From Arthrobacter sp. (lineage in GTDB: Bacteria; Actinomycetota; Actinomycetes; Actinomycetales; Micrococcaceae), in NCBI GenBank assembly GCA_031277795.1, contig JAITLQ010000015.1:193667-217666 (forward strand): a stretch of DNA of 24,000 nucleotides. Direction: 5' to 3'. A model generated the notes under the pieces. That model searched no databases and was not told the DNA's origin. It was given only the letters and a program-made list of their open reading frames with translations. Below are positions 16,755 through 21,521 of the stretch, piece by piece (positions within the stretch are counted from its first letter, which is position 1; each line of letters begins with the position of its first letter). Both the position numbers and the translations under genes were made by a program.

Positions 16755-17618
16755 ATGCTTCCAGCCCACGAACCCACCCTGCGCGGCGAGGGTGTGGTGC
16801 TTCGGCGCCACACGCACGACGATGCGGCGCTCGTCCGCGCCGCCGGCGCGGACGCGTACATCACCTCGGTGACGACGGTGCCCCCGGCACCGGCGAGCGA
16901 CGCCGAGGTGGTCGCTTACATCGCCAGGCAGCACTCGCGGCTGCCAGCGGGCCAGGGCGTGCAGCTCGTCATCGAGGATCAGGCGTCGGGCGTGGCCGTG
17001 GGGCAGATTGGGCTCATGGTCAAGGGTGTCCACCGGGCCGCGATCGGCTACTGGGTGGACCCCGGCGCGCGGCGGCGGGGCTACGCGGGGCGGGCCGCGA
17101 GGGTCCTCAGCGCGTGGGCGCTCGGCCTGCCCGGGCTACACCGGCTCGAGGCGAGCGTTGAACCGTGGAACGAGGGCTCGATGCGCGCCGTCGAGTCAGC
17201 TGGTTTCGTCCGGGAGGGCGTGGCGGCCAACTGGGAGCTCGTCGCCGGCGAGCCCAGGGACATGGTCATCTACGCGAAGGTCCCGGACGGGCACCGCGGC
17301 TGGGAAGCTCAGGCGCGGGAGTTCCAGACCGGCATGCCGCTGACCGAATGGAACGAAGCGGACCGAGAGGGGCGACTCACCTTGCAGTTGTGGGCGGTGG
17401 GGAGCGGGGAAGACGCCCTCCTTCGCCTGGCCCGCGGGGAGGAGCTCACCGACGCGGATCTCCTGTACCTAGCCTGGCTCAATTCGCTCGCCATCGAGAC
17501 CGGCTACCGCCCGCCGTGTGCCATCACCCCCGGCGGCGCGCGGATCGACGATGTGGCGCAGGAGATCCTTCTCAAGCGCTTCGGCCCCACCGGCACCCAC
17601 GTGCCGGGCGTCGACTGA
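16755..17618 (+). CDS. GNAT family N-acetyltransferase (RimJ/RimL-like) with an uncharacterised C-terminal extension of about 110 aa
   Basis: The GNAT core is LRGEGVVLRRHTHDD...IGYWVDPGARRRGYAGRAARVLSAWAL...HRLEASVEPWNEGSMRAVESAGFVREG. The reading frame then continues for about 110 residues with no family I recognise. Confidence 0.85.
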   Translation: MLPAHEPTLRGEGVVLRRHTHDDAALVRAAGADAYITSVTTVPPAPASDAEVVAYIARQHSRLPAGQGVQLVIEDQASGVAVGQIGLMVKGVHRAAIGYWVDPGARRRGYAGRAARVLSAWALGLPGLHRLEASVEPWNEGSMRAVESAGFVREGVAANWELVAGEPRDMVIYAKVPDGHRGWEAQAREFQTGMPLTEWNEADREGRLTLQLWAVGSGEDALLRLARGEELTDADLLYLAWLNSLAIETGYRPPCAITPGGARIDDVAQEILLKRFGPTGTHVPGVD

Positions 17619-17622
17619 CCCA

Positions 17623-17725
17623 GCCACCCGCCGTCGGGCACCGAAAGACCAAGATCGGAGTGCCTTGGGTACGCTTTTTGGCCAAAAAGCGTACCCAAGG
17701 CACTCCGATCCTGGGGGAAAACGGG
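17623..17725 (+). repeat. Palindromic intergenic element, copy 1 (REP/MITE-like): conserved flank plus perfect 58-bp palindrome
   Basis: The structure is GCCACCCGCCGTCGGGCAC (17623-17641), then 11 nt, then GATCGGAGTGCCTTGGGTACGCTTTTTGG|CCAAAAAGCGTACCCAAGGCACTCCGATC (17653-17710), then CTGGGGGAAAA. It starts 5 nt after the GNAT stop, between convergent genes. Confidence 0.9.
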
Positions 17726-17864
17726 GAAGGGCAGGCGCCCCGTGGTGGTGACGACCCCACGCAGCCGGGCAAGAGCCCGACGGCGCGTGGTTGCCACCGC
17801 GCGAGGCAAGGGTCCGCACCCCTGCGCCTCGCCACGGGGCGCCCGCCCGGTTGAGGGGCGACGC

Positions 17865-18932
17865 CTAGACGTCGATCGCGAGCTTCGCGGAGAGCGCGCG
17901 CGAAACGCACACGAGCATGCACCCGCCCGTGGCGCGCTCGGCCTCGGTGTAGAGGTCGTCGCGGTGGTCCACCTCGCCGTCAACGACCCGCACCTCGCAC
18001 GTGCCGCAGAAGCCCATCTCGCAGGAGCTCGGGTGGTCAACGCCGGCGCGGCGGATGGCCTCGAGGGCCGTCTCGTCGGCGCCGACCTCGACCTCGAGCC
18101 CCGAGGCGGTCAGCGCCAGCGTGAACCCGCCGGAGCCGTCCGTCGCCACGGCCACGGGGGCCGGCGCGAAGAGCTCGAGGTGTAGGTCGTCGGCGCGGCC
18201 GGCGTCCTCCATCAGACCCGTCAGCGCGTTCATGAGCCCGCCGGGCCCGCAGCAGTACACCTGCGCGCCAGTGCTGCCGGCCACGACGGCCGCGAGGTCC
18301 GGGTGGCCGGCCACGTCCTGCGGCACGAGCACCACATTCTCTCCGCCAAACTCCATGAGCTCGGCCAGGAAGGCGAAGTGATCGTTGGATCGCGCGGCGT
18401 AGACGAGTCGCCACGGCTTGCCGGCCCGTTGCACCTCGCGCGCCATGGCCAGCATGGGCGTGATGCCGATGCCGCCGGCCACGAACACGTACTTCTCGGC
18501 GTCCTCGAGCTCGAAGTTGTTGCGCGGGGCGGAGACGGTCAGCTCCACGCCGGCCCGCAGCTCGCGGTGCACCTCGCGGGAACCGCCGCGGCCGTCCACC
18601 ACCTCCAGCACGCCGATCCGATAGTGCGAAAGATCGGAGGGATCCGAGCAGAGCGAATACTGGCGCACCACCCCGGAGTGCAGGTGCACGTCCAGGTGCG
18701 ATCCCACGCTCCACGCGGGCAGCGTGCCCCCGCCTACCGGCACCAGCTCGTACGAGGTGATGCCGGCGGCCGTGCGGCGCGTGCCCTCCACGCGCACCAC
18801 GAAGGTGGCAGCGCGCTCCGAACCCGGCCCCACGCCGTCGGGCAGCAGCCCCGAAGCGGGCTCAACGTCTGAAGCGGGCGCAGCATCTGCGGCGGGCGCC
18901 GTGGCGCCCGGCCGCTCCGTCACTGTGGTCAC
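17865..18932 (-). CDS. PDR/VanB-type oxidoreductase (flavin reductase domain plus plant-type [2Fe-2S] ferredoxin domain)
   Basis: RQYSLCS is the flavin-binding RxYS motif and GGIGITPMLAM the NAD(P)H-binding motif. The C-terminal CEMGFCGTCE...MLVCVS supplies the cluster cysteines. The GTG start at 18932 lies 5 nt after the oxygenase stop. Confidence 0.9.
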   Translation of the reverse strand: MTTVTERPGATAPAADAAPASDVEPASGLLPDGVGPGSERAATFVVRVEGTRRTAAGITSYELVPVGGGTLPAWSVGSHLDVHLHSGVVRQYSLCSDPSDLSHYRIGVLEVVDGRGGSREVHRELRAGVELTVSAPRNNFELEDAEKYVFVAGGIGITPMLAMAREVQRAGKPWRLVYAARSNDHFAFLAELMEFGGENVVLVPQDVAGHPDLAAVVAGSTGAQVYCCGPGGLMNALTGLMEDAGRADDLHLELFAPAPVAVATDGSGGFTLALTASGLEVEVGADETALEAIRRAGVDHPSSCEMGFCGTCEVRVVDGEVDHRDDLYTEAERATGGCMLVCVSRALSAKLAIDV

Positions 18933-18937
18933 GGTGA

Positions 18938-19969
18938 TCAGCCCTGGACCTTGGTCATGAGCTCGTTGAAGCAGCGGCGGTAATTGAGCGTGAAGAGGTC
19001 GGCCGGGACGGAGAACTCCTGGACCTCGGCGTCCCAGGGGATCTCACGCGGGAAGACGCCGTCAACGATCGAAAGGTCCTCGCGGTAGACCATGTCCTCC
19101 ACGCGCAGGCATTCCTCGAGCGAGGCGCCCTTGTAACCCACCTGGTTGGCGACGCCCCAGAAGATCTTGACCTCCTCGTAGGAGACCGGCGACGGGAAGC
19201 CCGCCACGACGCGCTTGCCGAGGCGCTCGTAGTCGTAGGTGATGGAGGCCAGGCCGGGCGCCGAGCAGAAGTAGTGCATCATCGCGTTGCCGTCCTCGGC
19301 CCACTCGCCCGTGGAGGCGTTGAGCGGGCGATCCATCCAGACGTTGAGCCCCTCACGCACGGGCGTCAGCGGCTCCACGACCTCGGGGCTCGGCCCCATC
19401 GAGACCTGGTGCACAAACGGGAAGTGCGCCACGTCGCGGAAGTTCTCCACGGTGATGGCCACGCCCACGGCGGAGTCGAGGATGTCGCCGGCGAGCCACT
19501 CCCATTCAACGCCCTCCCAGTACGGGACCTCGTACACATCGCGGATCGGGTCCTCGAGGACGGTCCAGACGTGGCCGTACTTCAGCTGCACGGGGTAGGT
19601 CTTGATGGCGGCCTGGGGCGGGATCTTCGACTGGTCCTCGAGCGAGGGGACGCGCACGCAGGCACCGTCCGCCGCGCCAAACTGCCAGCCGTGGTACGGG
19701 CAGCCGATCGACTTTTCATGGACGGCGCCGGCGGAGAGATCAGCGCCGCGGTGCGGGCAGCGGCGGTCCTGGACGGCCACGGTGCCGTCGCCCGAGCGGT
19801 AGACGACCAGGTCGACGCCCAGCAGCGTGGCGCGCTGCGGCTTGTCCAGGTCGACGATGCGGGCCACGGGGAACCAGCTCTGGCGCATGGCCTGCTCGGC
19901 GAGCTCGCGCTTGGTGCGCTTGGCCGCCGGGGCGGCGCCGGCCTGCGGGTGAGGGGCGGTGGTGGTCAT
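18938..19969 (-). CDS. Rieske [2Fe-2S] non-haem-iron oxygenase, VanA/PaO-like (class IA monooxygenase/demethylase type)
   Basis: ATG at 19969 is preceded by AGGAG. The Rieske motif is CPHRGADLSAGAVHEKSIGCPYHGWQF and the mononuclear iron motif ENFRDVAHFPFVH (E-x3-D-x2-H-x4-H). The track ORF to 20953 is over-extended. Confidence 0.9.
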   Translation of the reverse strand: MTTTAPHPQAGAAPAAKRTKRELAEQAMRQSWFPVARIVDLDKPQRATLLGVDLVVYRSGDGTVAVQDRRCPHRGADLSAGAVHEKSIGCPYHGWQFGAADGACVRVPSLEDQSKIPPQAAIKTYPVQLKYGHVWTVLEDPIRDVYEVPYWEGVEWEWLAGDILDSAVGVAITVENFRDVAHFPFVHQVSMGPSPEVVEPLTPVREGLNVWMDRPLNASTGEWAEDGNAMMHYFCSAPGLASITYDYERLGKRVVAGFPSPVSYEEVKIFWGVANQVGYKGASLEECLRVEDMVYREDLSIVDGVFPREIPWDAEVQEFSVPADLFTLNYRRCFNELMTKVQG

Positions 19970-19992
19970 GGGGTACTCCTGTGGGTCTGTGG

Positions 19993-20096
19993 GTTTTTTT
20001 CCCCGCTTCGGAGTGGGTTGGGTACAAAAAACGGCCGAAAAGCGTACCGAACCCACTCCGATCCTTGAGGGGGGTGAGTGCCCGGCGGCGGGTGGC
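19993..20096 (-). repeat. Palindromic intergenic element, copy 2 (inverted orientation, partly degenerate)
   Basis: The minus strand reads GCCACCCGCCGCCGGGCAC (20096-20078), then 14 nt, then GATCGGAGTGGGTTCGGTACGCTTTTCGGCCGTTTTTTGTACCCAACCCACTCCGAAGC, then GGGGAAAAAAA. The arms at 20008-20025 and 20044-20061 are 17/18 complementary. It sits between the SDR and Rieske genes. Confidence 0.85.
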
Positions 20097-20118
20097 CGGG
20101 TCGGGCAGGGGAGGCGGC

Positions 20119-20895
20119 TTAGGCGCCCACGACGAGGGCGCCGCCGTTGACGGAGAGGGTCTCGCCCGTCATGAAGGACGCGGCATCGGAGGCGAGGAAC
20201 GCCACGACGGACGCGATCTCCTCCGGCTCGCCCAGTCGACCGAGCGGCACGGCGGCGACCTCCATCTCGTAGGCCTCCTCCGGCACCATGCGCGTGCGGA
20301 TGGCTCCCGGGGCGATGGCGTTCACGAGGATCCCGTCGGCCACGAGGGCCTTGGAGAGCGCCTTCATGAGCGCCAGCTGCGCCGCCTTGGAGGTCATGTA
20401 GCCAAAGGAATGCCCGTCCGGCACCTGCCCCCACTGGGAGGAGATGAAGACGATGCGGCCCACCGAGGACGCTCGCAGCGCCGGCACCGCGGCCCGGGAG
20501 AGGGCGTAGGGCGCCTGCACGTTGACCTTGAAGTAGGCCTCCAACGAGGCCGGCTCGGTCTCCTCGAGCGTGCGGAAGTCGTGCATGATGCCGGCGTTGT
20601 GCACCAGCACGTCCAGAGCGCCGAAGTTCTCCAGCGCCACCGACGCGAGGTGCTCGGGCGCCCCGGCCTCGGTGATGTCGCCGGCCACGGAGGCCACGTC
20701 GGCCCCGGCCGCGCGCAGCTCGTCCGCCGTGCGGGAGAGCTCGTCGGCGTCCAGATCGGCGAGCACCAGGCGGGCGCCCTGGGCGGCCAGAGCGCGGGCG
20801 TGGGCGGCCCCCATGCCGCGGGCGGCCCCGGTGATGAGCGCGACGCGGCCGGAGAGCGGCTTGGCCGCCGCCGCCGAGTTCACTGCCTGGTTCAC
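20119..20895 (-). CDS. Short-chain dehydrogenase/reductase (SDR, FabG-like)
   Basis: TGAARGMG matches the TGxxxGxG motif. NAG and the catalytic YMTSKAA (YxxxK) are present. GTG at 20895 overlaps the upstream stop (GTGA). Confidence 0.92.
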   Translation of the reverse strand: MNQAVNSAAAAKPLSGRVALITGAARGMGAAHARALAAQGARLVLADLDADELSRTADELRAAGADVASVAGDITEAGAPEHLASVALENFGALDVLVHNAGIMHDFRTLEETEPASLEAYFKVNVQAPYALSRAAVPALRASSVGRIVFISSQWGQVPDGHSFGYMTSKAAQLALMKALSKALVADGILVNAIAPGAIRTRMVPEEAYEMEVAAVPLGRLGEPEEIASVVAFLASDAASFMTGETLSVNGGALVVGA

Positions 20896-21365
20896 AGCGC
20901 GGCCGGGTTGCCGGAGGCGATGCCGGCGCTCGCGCCCGCCCCGACGACCGCACCGGACTCGTGCGGTTCGGTCACGTAGATCATGTTGCCGTCCGGGTCG
21001 AAGAACGCGCGGTACTGGTACCAGCGCCCCGAGGGGTGCTCCCATACGGTCTTCTCGCCCGTGACCCACTGGACCTTCCCGTCCAGCTCGGCGTAGGCCT
21101 CGTCGAGGGAATCGACGGCAAACGCGATGGAGTCGTAGCCCTGCGGGTCCTGCTCGTTGATGCCGGTGCGGCGGAAGACCGGGGCCGCGTGCTCGGTGGC
21201 GAAGAGGTACAGGGTGAGGTTGCCGAAATCGATGGCGGCCCACCCCTCCCCGGGCTCGAAGGGCAAGAAGAAGTCCAGGCCAAGGGTCTGCGTGTAGAAC
21301 TCGACCATCTCGTCGAAGTTGTTGGACAGGATGTCCATGTTGTCGATGCGCTTGAGCTTCAGCAC
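20892..21365 (-). CDS. VOC (glyoxalase/bleomycin-resistance/extradiol dioxygenase) family protein
   Basis: GTG at 21365 is preceded by AAAGGAG. LKLKRIDNMDILSNNFDEMVEFYTQTLGL is a typical VOC N-terminus, followed by ...SIAFAVDSLDEAYAEL...FFDPDGNMIYV. The product is 157 aa. Confidence 0.85.
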   Translation of the reverse strand: MLKLKRIDNMDILSNNFDEMVEFYTQTLGLDFFLPFEPGEGWAAIDFGNLTLYLFATEHAAPVFRRTGINEQDPQGYDSIAFAVDSLDEAYAELDGKVQWVTGEKTVWEHPSGRWYQYRAFFDPDGNMIYVTEPHESGAVVGAGASAGIASGNPAAL

Positions 21366-21490
21366 GTCGGCTCCTTTGTTGCTGTTCCCCCGCCCGGTTT
21401 TTGGGCGCAGTGGGGGAGGGACTGATGGGGTGTCGCGTCGGGGACAGTGCCCGACGCCGGGTGCTCGCCTCGGCGAGCGGAAGGCGCGTG

Positions 21491-21513
21491 GGTGCGGGGC
21501 CGGGCCCCGCACC
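21491..21513 (-). terminator. GC-rich hairpin 9 nt downstream of the APC permease stop (candidate U-tract-less terminator/attenuator)
   Basis: The sequence GGTGCGGGGCC-G-GGCCCCGCACC has perfect 11-nt arms. No T-run follows. Confidence 0.4.
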
Positions 21514-21521
21514 TCACGGGC

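What the first reader, a model, noticed from the sequence alone, without database searches (positions are those of the whole stretch)
17623..20096. Dispersed family of roughly 100-bp palindromic intergenic elements (two clear copies in opposite orientation)
The copies at 17623-17725 (+) and 19993-20096 (-) share three parts:
- a 19-nt flank, GCCACCCGCCG(T/C)CGGGCAC
- a long inverted repeat built on GATCGGAGTG..TT.GGTACGCTTTT.GGCC...GTACCCAA...CACTCCGA
- a GGGGAAAA tail

Copy 1 is a perfect 58-bp palindrome centred on GGCC. Copy 2 has 17/18 complementary outer arms, but its inner part has decayed into an A/T run.

Both copies start within about 5-25 nt of a stop codon. Copy 1 lies between convergent genes. 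Copy 2 splits what otherwise looks like one catabolic operon, between the SDR and the Rieske oxygenase.

No transposase is present. The organisation (conserved flank plus subterminal hairpin) is what one sees for REP/BIME elements, for MITEs, and for hairpin-ended non-autonomous derivatives of IS200/IS605-type elements. The elements could also serve as terminators or mRNA-stability and processing sites. I do not recognise the sequence as a named repeat family.
Basis: seen in the sequence. Interest (0 to 1): 0.6.

Follow-up and report, generated by a model that had tools for sequence, protein, structure and literature searches.

The report
Hairpin repeats with partner nuclease gene
The two look-alike stretches are solo copies of a 56-base hairpin-forming repeat present about 58 times in this Galactobacter genome, and the family has a partner: a DNA-binding nuclease gene elsewhere in the genome sits between two copies, much as REP repeats go with their RAYT transposase but with a different type of enzyme.

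Summary
Both elements exist, and they belong to a family of 58 copies of a 56-bp palindrome in this 3.6-Mb Galactobacter genome.

- **Sequence pattern.** The termini (ATCGGAGTG / CACTCCGAT) never vary. The inner stem varies with compensatory changes.
- **Location.** 25 of 42 classifiable intergenic regions lie between convergent genes (background 20%).
- **Inheritance.** Copies in two sister species sit at sites that are also occupied here.
It is a separate, more abundant REP-like family. When it lies near a palindrome it always points towards it.
- **Enzymes ruled out.** No Y1 (RAYT/IS200) transposase, TnpB or IS110 gene was found.

**Main new result.** A 317-aa gene sits between two copies of this palindrome. 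It pairs an AbiEi-like DNA-binding domain with a Vsr/DUF559-like nuclease domain. Three paralogues in the same genome each sit between their own, different palindrome family, and each of those families also has dispersed solo copies. Of 2,847 genes scanned, only genes of this family showed that layout. It recurs in other Micrococcaceae genera.

**Best reading.** This is a REP–RAYT-like partnership between a repeat and an enzyme, built on a different nuclease. The association is shown. Cleavage, mobility and any effect on transcripts are inferred.

Earlier notes of this scan report the same layout on other DNA. I found no published description.

The parts
17653..17710 (.). Copy 1: perfect 58-bp palindrome (family core 17654-17709), subfamily A, 'GCCTTGGG' stem variant; solo copy between convergent GNAT and reductase genes
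17623..17641 (+). REP-like 17-19-nt motif (separate family), 13 nt from the core and pointing towards it
17711..17733 (.).
17774..17786 (-). second REP-like motif on the far side of copy 1, also pointing towards the core
20007..20062 (.). Copy 2: 56-bp core, main 'GGGTTCGG' stem variant, inner right arm replaced by a T run; lies in the 146-nt gap between the SDR stop and the Rieske oxygenase start
20078..20096 (-). REP-like motif next to copy 2, 16 nt from the core, pointing towards it
16755..17618 (+). GNAT acetyltransferase gene whose stop precedes copy 1; conserved in relatives
17865..19972 (-). ferredoxin-reductase (17865-18932) and Rieske VanA-like oxygenase (18938-19972) genes lying between the two copies; no counterpart found in the five other genomes of the genus
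20119..20901 (-). short-chain dehydrogenase gene whose stop precedes copy 2

Best explanation
The two window elements are gene-less ('solo') members of a family of 56-bp palindromic repeats. The family is paired with a specific gene at G000 contig C2:111059-112009, outside the window.

That gene encodes a 317-aa protein with an AbiEi/Rv2827c-like winged-helix DNA-binding part and a C-terminal Vsr-like (DUF559, EDxHD-type) nuclease domain. It sits about 115 nt inside two copies of the palindrome, forming a unit of about 1.29 kb.

I read this as a REPtron-like partnership. The protein would recognise the invariant termini of the palindrome, probably on the extruded hairpin. Its cutting, followed by repair or copying, would spread and/or homogenise the copies. 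Solo copies would survive mainly where they do least harm, downstream of genes. There they can also act as strong RNA 3' hairpins.

Shown:
- the family and its copy number
- selection for the hairpin
- the 3'-end bias
- vertical persistence of copies
- the gene-repeat association, with four orthogonal pairs in one genome and recurrence in other genera

Inferred:
- that the protein binds or cuts its palindrome
- that this is how copies spread
- any effect on transcripts
For: **Family**
- 58 copies.
- Termini and the GGTACG block are invariant in 54/54 aligned copies.

**Hairpin under selection**
- Compensatory changes at core pairs 10/47, 11/46 and 14/43: 82% of cells paired, against 25-47% in slid controls.
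- Across genera, 22 of 31 pairs change on both sides: 88% paired against 28-48%.
- Core position 21/36 varies freely, so the arms are not simply copied from one another.

**Location**
- 25 convergent, 15 tandem and 2 divergent of 42 intergenic regions. Background is 20/58/22%, p = 3e-8.

**Persistence**
- All five tested copies of two sister species lie at sites also occupied here.
- The core is much better conserved than the rest of the spacer.

**Partner gene**
- P0001 is bracketed by copies at C2:110890 and C2:112125.
- Its G005 orthologue is bracketed by two palindromes with the same termini but a different interior.
- Paralogues at C5, C4 and C13 are each bracketed by their own palindrome family. 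Unit lengths are 1269-1291 bp.
- In an unbiased scan of 2,847 G000 genes, the only three with 12-mer-sharing long palindromes on both sides were of this family.
- Each flanking family also has solo copies: about 25, about 10 and about 6-10.

**Other genera**
- 9 of 27 homologue loci carry a matching pair, and 8 more carry a palindrome. Density is 0.96/kb within 500 nt of the gene, against 0.054/kb further out.
- In genus g6 the flanking palindrome has at least 35-40 dispersed copies. In G079 it occupies 7 loci.
- In G019 the g15-type palindrome abuts a homologue.
- Close proteins have similar palindrome termini (TCGGAGTG / TCGCGAGTG / TCGAGTG / TCGACTG). Proteins only 23-25% identical have unrelated palindromes.

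**Protein**
- AlphaFold pLDDT 91.5.
- Foldseek: Rv2827c, probability 0.96; the I-Bth0305I homing-endonuclease catalytic domain, probability 1.00, TM 0.70.
- Conserved residues D249, Y261, G263, H266, D275, R278.
Against: - No biochemical or transcript evidence.
- Pfam DUF559 and MTES_1575 matches are below the curated cut-offs (18.9 and 22.4 bits). Foldseek E-values are only 0.01-0.02.
- No clean filled-versus-empty site was found that would define the ends or a target duplication. Spacers are too diverged.
- All tested copies in relatives are shared, so recent movement is not demonstrated.
- 10 of 27 foreign homologue loci show no palindrome.
- G002 has palindromes but lacks the gene at the C2 locus. 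It is an 85%-complete MAG.
- The ORF tested between two g15 palindromes in G019 is not a family member; the other ORFs in that interval were not tested.
- The direction of dependence is open. The gene could be the mobile part that lands beside pre-existing hairpins.
Confidence: 0.55

Rival explanations
1. The palindromes are primarily host 3'-end elements: orientation-independent RNA hairpins that block 3' exonucleases or help termination between convergent genes. The nuclease gene would be a selfish cassette that homes into or next to such hairpins. The gene is then the mobile part and the repeats are its landing sites.
For: - Strong convergent-gene bias and depletion from divergent spacers.
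- Degenerate copies lie 140-700 nt downstream of all four rrn operons.
- Orthologous copies are conserved across species.
- E. coli REPs act as dual terminator-stabilisers (bioRxiv 10.64898/2026.03.23.713779).
- The C2 locus is a hot spot with different gene content in each species.
- The fold matches a homing endonuclease.
Against: - A plain RNA hairpin does not need invariant 9-nt termini, or a separate sequence family for each paralogue.
- No U-tract follows the hairpin.
- Each side of the gene carries a complete palindrome, not a half, so simple insertion into a hairpin centre does not fit.
- The G.U versus A.C mismatch test shows no strand bias outside the rrn copies.
Confidence: 0.22
2. 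An ordinary MITE: a deletion derivative of a DDE-type insertion sequence, consisting of little more than its two terminal inverted repeats and moved in trans by that transposase.
For: - The whole element is an inverted repeat with invariant ends.
- A G005 subfamily keeps the ends but has a different interior.
- Copy number differs between species.
Against: - No solitary arms and no longer element with these ends exist in the genome. Stray 9-mers occur at chance frequency.
- The only IS visible at contig ends is IS30-like, with unrelated ends.
- No consistent target-site duplication.
- The interior stays palindromic in every subfamily.
- No match in plasmid or phage collections.
Confidence: 0.06
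3. REP/REPIN elements mobilised by a RAYT, or hairpin-ended derivatives of IS200/IS605.
For: The form is that of a REPIN: two inverted arms that co-vary, in intergenic positions, inherited vertically.
Against: - No PF01797 match at E<=1 in the 99.8%-complete own genome, and none in G005, G002, G019 or G070, while the control genomes do give matches.
- No TnpB.
- No GTAG or CGTC tag at the ends.
Confidence: 0.02
4. Operator sites of a regulon, bound as double-stranded DNA by a dimeric regulator. The wHTH part of the partner protein could act as that regulator.
For: - Invariant symmetric blocks (ATCGGAGTG, GGTACG).
- The partner protein has an AbiEi-like DNA-binding domain.
Against: - Sites avoid promoter-containing spacers.
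- Compensatory changes point to an extruded hairpin rather than to duplex half-sites.
- 56 bp is far longer than known operators.
Confidence: 0.05

Closest known systems
REPIN-RAYT systems ('REPtrons'; Bertels & Rainey 2011, PMC3116915; PMC3337134)
   Same: - Dispersed intergenic hairpin repeats whose two arms co-vary.
- A single-copy gene bracketed by its own repeats.
- Several orthogonal gene-repeat pairs in one genome.
- Vertical inheritance and long persistence.
   Different: - The enzyme is not a HUH/Y1 transposase (none is present). It is an AbiEi-like wHTH fused to a Vsr-like/DUF559 nuclease.
- The repeat is one long 56-75-bp palindrome, not two short REPs.
- There is no GTAG tag.
- The host is an actinobacterium, a phylum not listed among the phyla carrying tagged REPs in PMC3733652.
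BoxC / PIT / TMECO intrastrand-triplex repeats (Holder et al. 2015, PMC4666352)
   Same: - A C-rich arm followed by G-rich arms.
- Strictly intergenic.
- Located in variable regions.
- No partner enzyme in print.

The flanks of the palindrome here are C-rich on the 5' side and carry one or more G-rich blocks on the 3' side. Several copies sit at borders of species-specific DNA.
   Different: - TMECO is 37 nt with a 3-6-nt first loop. Here a 56-bp sequence-specific palindrome occupies the centre.
- Triplex formation was not tested.
- The resemblance of the flanks is compositional only.
EDxHD (Vsr-like) homing endonucleases such as I-Bth0305I (PDB 3r3p)
   Same: The C-terminal domain of the partner protein matches this catalytic domain (Foldseek probability 1.00, TM 0.70).
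   Different: - It is not inside an intron or intein.
- It carries an AbiEi-like N-terminal domain.
- It is bracketed by palindromes that also occur as solo copies.
Bacterial MITEs and long palindromic repeats (Correia, ERIC, RUP, Rickettsia RPE; review PMC3184786)
   Same: - Size class.
- Hairpin potential.
- Intergenic location.
- Lineage-specific copy number.
   Different: - No parent insertion sequence.
- No target-site duplication.
- Palindromic through the whole length, in every subfamily.
E. coli REP elements as 3'UTR terminator-stabilisers (bioRxiv 10.64898/2026.03.23.713779)
   Same: Position after stop codons, inside operons (copy 2) and between convergent genes (copy 1).
   Different: Function here is untested. 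The hairpin is much longer, more than 20 bp of perfect duplex.

Membership tests
REP/REPIN-RAYT | Y1 (HUH) transposase gene (PF01797) in the same genome, normally flanked by the repeats | tested here: not met
   No match at E<=1 in G000 (99.8% complete), and none in G005, G002, G019 or G070. The control genomes do give matches.
REP/REPIN-RAYT | dispersed intergenic inverted-repeat hairpins whose arms co-vary | tested here: met
   58 copies; compensatory pairs
REP/REPIN-RAYT | GTAG or CGTC tag at one end of the palindrome (PMC3733652) | tested here: not met
   Ends are ATCGGAGTG / CACTCCGAT.
MITE | terminal inverted repeats shared with an autonomous insertion sequence | tested here: not met
   No solitary arms beyond chance. 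The IS at contig ends has unrelated ends. No hits in plasmids or phages.
MITE | target-site duplication | tested here: inconclusive
   Flanks are conserved in composition only. The short TCNGA-like flanks are themselves palindromic. No clean empty site was found.
IS200/IS605 derivatives (PATE) | TnpA(Y1) and/or TnpB in the genome | tested here: not met
Intrinsic (Rho-independent) terminator | GC-rich hairpin directly followed by a U-tract | tested here: not met
   The hairpin is followed by GAU-YCUGGGG. The T and A runs lie next to the loop.
Rfam RNA families | match above a family's gathering score | tested here: not met
   Only sub-threshold matches to microRNA hairpin models.
DUF559 / Vsr-like nuclease (partner protein) | Pfam PF04480 or PF18741 above the curated cut-off | tested here: inconclusive
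   18.9 bits against a 20.6 cut-off, and 22.4 against 38.2. The fold matches I-Bth0305I. A conserved D...EY.G..H...D..R...W motif is present.
Nuclease gene bracketed by cognate palindromes (layout seen here and in earlier notes of this scan) | gene flanked on both sides by similar long palindromes that also occur dispersed in the same genome | tested here: met
   Four loci in G000; 9 of 27 foreign loci; dispersed copies in G010, G063 and G079.
BoxC/TMECO triplex motif | CCCTCNCCC - short loop - GGGNGAGGG - N3 - GGGNGAGGG | tested here: inconclusive
   C-rich 5' flank and G-rich 3' flank, often with repeated G blocks. The consensus was not scanned for, and the centre is a 56-bp palindrome.

The most novel reading that the evidence does not exclude
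Actinobacteria carry an undescribed class of repeat-enzyme partnership. In it, an AbiEi-like wHTH + Vsr-like (DUF559) nuclease recognises, and spreads or maintains, its own family of long palindromes. Several mutually orthogonal enzyme-palindrome pairs coexist in one genome: families A, C, D and E here. The window's two elements would be non-autonomous members of pair A.
Probability: 0.45. Interest if true: 0.8.

Novelty: new variant of a known kind. Interest (0 to 1): 0.62.

Why it matters
REP-type repeats are among the commonest non-coding features of bacterial genomes. RAYT (Y1) transposases are the only partner enzyme I know of for them. Many repeat families lack one, including CGTC REPs (PMC3733652) and, as far as I found, BoxC/TMECO repeats.

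A second, unrelated enzyme family would matter in four ways, if its members each sit between their own palindromes and co-vary with them:
- It would explain how long palindromes spread and persist in RAYT-free lineages such as Actinobacteria.
- It would give a function to a very large set of 'DUF559 / endonuclease domain-containing' genes.
- It would provide natural sets of orthogonal protein-hairpin recognition pairs.
- It would flag these repeats as markers of variable, insertion-prone intergenic sites.

For annotation of this window, the practical point is smaller. Copy 2 is a very stable hairpin inside an apparent SDR-Rieske-reductase operon, and it may uncouple expression of its parts.

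Tried and rejected
- **Rfam.** Scans of the region and of contig ends gave only spurious microRNA-type hairpin matches.
- **Transposases.** RAYT/IS200, TnpB and IS110 were not found.
- **Plasmid and phage collections.** No match.
- **Metagenome scan with one arm.** 24 single-arm hits, as expected by chance, and no palindromic copy.
- **Order-wide covariance-model search.** Hits appeared in 12 of 150 genomes of other families. Sequence-only scores are not significant at that search size (E >= 1.7), so I claim no homology beyond Galactobacter plus the probable relatives in genus g15.
- **Strand test (G.U versus A.C mismatches relative to the upstream gene).** 17 against 11 outside the rrn copies, so it is uninformative.
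- **Target-site duplication and exact ends.** Not resolvable, because the orthologous spacers are too diverged.
- **Integron-like 'cassette' reading** (palindromes at both borders of inserted genes). One 4.5-kb and one 5.4-kb species-specific insert have a palindrome at one border or at none. Rejected as a rule.
- **The ATCGGAG / TCCGAT remnant.** Seen at two of five empty sites. Not consistent enough to call a target.
- **ORF between two g15 palindromes in G019.** The one ORF I tested is not a member of the nuclease family; the other ORFs in that interval were not tested.
- Circular, because the sequence was already in the alignment. Not used.
Full report
**1. What is in the window**

Window 17653-17710 is a perfect 58-bp palindrome centred on GGCC. 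Window 20007-20062 is a second copy with intact outer arms and a damaged inner right arm. As RNA, copy 1 folds at about -60 kcal/mol (z = -11.3) and copy 2 at -37 to -41 kcal/mol (z = -4.2).

- GNAT acetyltransferase, 16755-17618 (+)
- FNR/Fer2 reductase, 17865-18932 (-)
- Rieske VanA-like oxygenase, 18938-19972 (-)
- SDR, 20119-20901 (-)

Copy 1 therefore lies between convergent genes. Copy 2 lies in the 146-nt gap between the SDR and the Rieske gene.

**2. A genome-wide family**

The window is G000 contig C10:193667-217666, in a 3.62-Mb, 71% G+C draft of 18 contigs. An exact-pattern scan of species genomes hit only Galactobacter valiniphilus and a Galactobacter MAG, so the genus is Galactobacter.

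Iterated nhmmer finds 58 copies, all 55-56 bp. The anatomy of the core:
- The termini ATCGGAGTG / CACTCCGAT, the blocks GGTACG / CGTACC and the central GGCC are essentially invariant.
- Positions 10, 11 and 14 and their partners vary.
- Position 21/36 varies freely and pairs no more often than chance would give.
- About 15 nt on the 5' side are C/T-rich and depleted of G.
- The 3' side is G/A-rich, often with several G blocks or short tandem repeats.

Rfam has nothing like it.

**3. The hairpin is under selection**

On 63 aligned copies, 82% of cells pair, against 25-47% when the partner is slid. There are G-C to C-G and C-G to U-A to G-C switches at three stem positions.

One orthologous copy pair (G000 C10:394505 and G005) differs by three fully compensated pair changes. 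This could also reflect subfamily replacement.

A covariance model trained only on Galactobacter copies found full-length matches in only one other of 38 sampled Micrococcaceae genera, g15 (G019 and G070). That genus shows the same architecture but a different sequence. Across both genera, 22 of 31 pairs change on both sides.

Weaker matches in other families of the order are not significant by sequence alone. I do not count them.

**4. Where the copies sit**

With a GC3-based gene call (2,873 genes, 84% of the genome coding), the copies occupy 25 convergent, 15 tandem and 2 divergent intergenic regions. The background is 20%, 58% and 22% (binomial p = 3e-8 for the convergent class).

Four contigs begin with the 3' end of 5S rRNA. 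Each carries one to three degenerate copies 140-700 nt downstream. One of these sites is also occupied in G005.

**5. History**

- At BLAST level the family is confined to three of six genomes of the genus.
- All five copies examined in G005 and G002 lie at sites also occupied in G000. There the core is far better conserved than the surrounding spacer.
- Several G000 copies have no counterpart in the relatives.
- The spacers are too diverged to show clean insertion borders.
- Some copies lie at borders of species-specific DNA. The Rieske/reductase/SDR segment of the window has no counterpart in the genus. This is not a rule, however.

**6. The '19-nt flank'**

The motif CCACCCGCCGTCGGGCA is a separate REP-like family:
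- 146 copies at <=1 mismatch, 323 at <=2 and 714 at <=3. Shuffled patterns give 39-198.
- It is largely intergenic at the stricter cut-offs (119 of 146 copies at <=1 mismatch) and often occurs in inverted doublets.
- It is present next to the GNAT stop in G002, where the palindrome is missing.

Within 100 nt of a palindrome it points towards the core 28 times and away 6 times. The six 'away' cases are mostly the distal partners of doublets. Fourteen copies lie 13-28 nt from the core.

**7. No known mobilising enzyme**

- No Y1 transposase in any of the five element-bearing genomes.
- No TnpB and no IS110 transposase.
- The only IS visible at contig ends is IS30-like, with unrelated ends.
- No solitary arms beyond chance.
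- Nothing in plasmid, phage or metagenome collections.

**8. The partner gene**

At contig C2, four copies crowd a 3-kb spacer that is only 183 bp in G001. Two of them bracket a 317-aa gene, P0001 (C2:111059-112009, minus strand).

Three further observations point the same way:
- The G005 orthologue (68% nucleotide identity) is bracketed by two palindromes with the same termini but a different interior.
- The 54%-identical paralogue on C5 is bracketed by a third family with termini TCGCGAGTG.
- I then scanned all 2,847 G000 genes for long palindromes (arms >=16) within 500 nt on both sides that share a 12-mer. Only three genes qualified: the C2 locus and two further genes, C4:245518-246468 and C13:21705-22733. 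Both of those have the E(V/F)DG motif of DUF559 proteins.

The four units measure 1269-1291 bp. Every flanking palindrome family also has dispersed solo copies: about 10 (C4 type), about 25 (C13 type), about 6-10 (C5 type) and 58 (C2 type).

**9. The same layout in other genera**

- Homologues of P0001 occur in 43 of 61 sampled Micrococcaceae genomes, at 1-6 copies each.
- Of 27 loci, 9 have a matching palindrome pair (units 1.11-1.26 kb), 8 have a palindrome without a matching partner and 10 have none.
- Palindrome density is 0.96/kb within 500 nt of the gene, against 0.054/kb further out. Part of that contrast reflects intergenic versus coding DNA. The G000 whole-gene scan is the fairer control.
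- The flanking palindrome of G010 has at least 35-40 dispersed copies in G010 and in G063. That of G079 occupies seven loci. G048 has only the two flanking copies.
- In G019 the g15-type palindrome abuts a homologue.
- Termini of the palindromes resemble each other when the proteins are close (TCGGAGTG, TCGCGAGTG, TCGAGTG, TCGACTG). They are unrelated for the 23-25%-identical paralogues.

**10. The protein**

- Pfam gives only sub-threshold DUF559 and MTES_1575 matches at the C-terminus. NCBIfam and PDB sequence searches give nothing or only weak matches.
- An AlphaFold model from 29 homologues is confident (pLDDT 91.5).
- Foldseek matches M. tuberculosis Rv2827c over the whole length (probability 0.96). 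From my own knowledge, Rv2827c is an AbiEi-type DNA-binding protein.
- Foldseek also matches the catalytic domain of the homing endonuclease I-Bth0305I (probability 1.00, TM 0.70).
- D249 is invariant. Y261, G263, H266, D275, R278 and W287 are nearly so.

**11. Reading**

The best-supported explanation is a REPtron-like partnership built on a Vsr-like nuclease. The window's two elements are solo members of it.

The association is shown. Recognition, cleavage, the mode of spread and any RNA-level effect are inferred. The main rival reverses the dependence: host 3' hairpins used as landing sites by a homing cassette.

**12. What is known**

I found no paper describing this layout. The nearest items in print are:
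- DUF559 proteins listed as enriched among predicted inversion targets (PMC9881135)
- the partner-less BoxC/TMECO repeats of variable regions (PMC4666352)

Earlier notes of this scan, which I read, report the same gene-between-hairpins layout on other DNA. I treat them as agreement, not as evidence.

Noticed in passing
window 17623-17641, 17774-17786, 20078-20096, 2007-2067; genome-wide: A short REP-like family (CCACCCGCCGTCGGGCA) is present, with 146 to about 700 copies. It often forms inverted doublets, is biased to convergent spacers, and has no RAYT in the genome. Near the 56-bp palindromes it always points towards them.
   Followed up: partly
G000 contigs C5:138, C8:247 and 432, C9:261, 540 and 656, C11:185: These contigs start with the 3' end of 5S rRNA. 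One to three degenerate copies of the palindrome follow each rrn operon after a first terminator-like hairpin. In the rRNA-sense strand their mismatches are almost all A.C, which would be G.U on the other strand.
   Followed up: partly
G000 C4:245363-246633, C13:21632-22912, C5:144219-145487: Three more nuclease-gene units are each bracketed by their own long palindrome family (66-75 bp). Each family has dispersed solo copies (about 10, 25 and 6-10).
   Followed up: partly
G000 C2:110860-113860 (locus L056): This is a hot spot between two conserved convergent genes. It is 183 bp in G001. G002 has one extra gene (LssY_C), G005 has one (the nuclease), and G000 has two genes plus four palindromes.
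   Followed up: partly
flanks of the 58 copies, e.g. C10:390555-390632, C13:63822-63891: The G-rich 3' flanks often consist of 17-29-nt tandem units that start at the last bases of the core. With the C-rich 5' flank they resemble BoxC/TMECO triplex motifs and are G-quadruplex-prone.
   Followed up: no
G002 contig C272 end (L042:1-90), orthologous to window 17619-17760: This site lacks the palindrome but keeps ATCGGAG, the REP-like motif and part of the G-rich tail. It may be a deletion remnant. A similar TTCCGAT sits at one empty site in G005.
   Followed up: partly
contig ends C4, C6, C7, C11, C14, C17, C18: An IS30-like element of about five copies is collapsed out of the assembly. Each insertion abuts a GC-rich hairpin.
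   Followed up: no
window 17640-21520: The reductase-Rieske-SDR segment has no counterpart in the five other genomes of the genus, whereas both sides do. It is probably recently acquired catabolic DNA.
   Followed up: partly
G005 C11:~20400, C39:~11200, C26:~17000 and ~18130: G005 has a second subfamily with the same ATCGGAGTGC termini and a different, still palindromic interior. This subfamily is absent from G000.
   Followed up: partly
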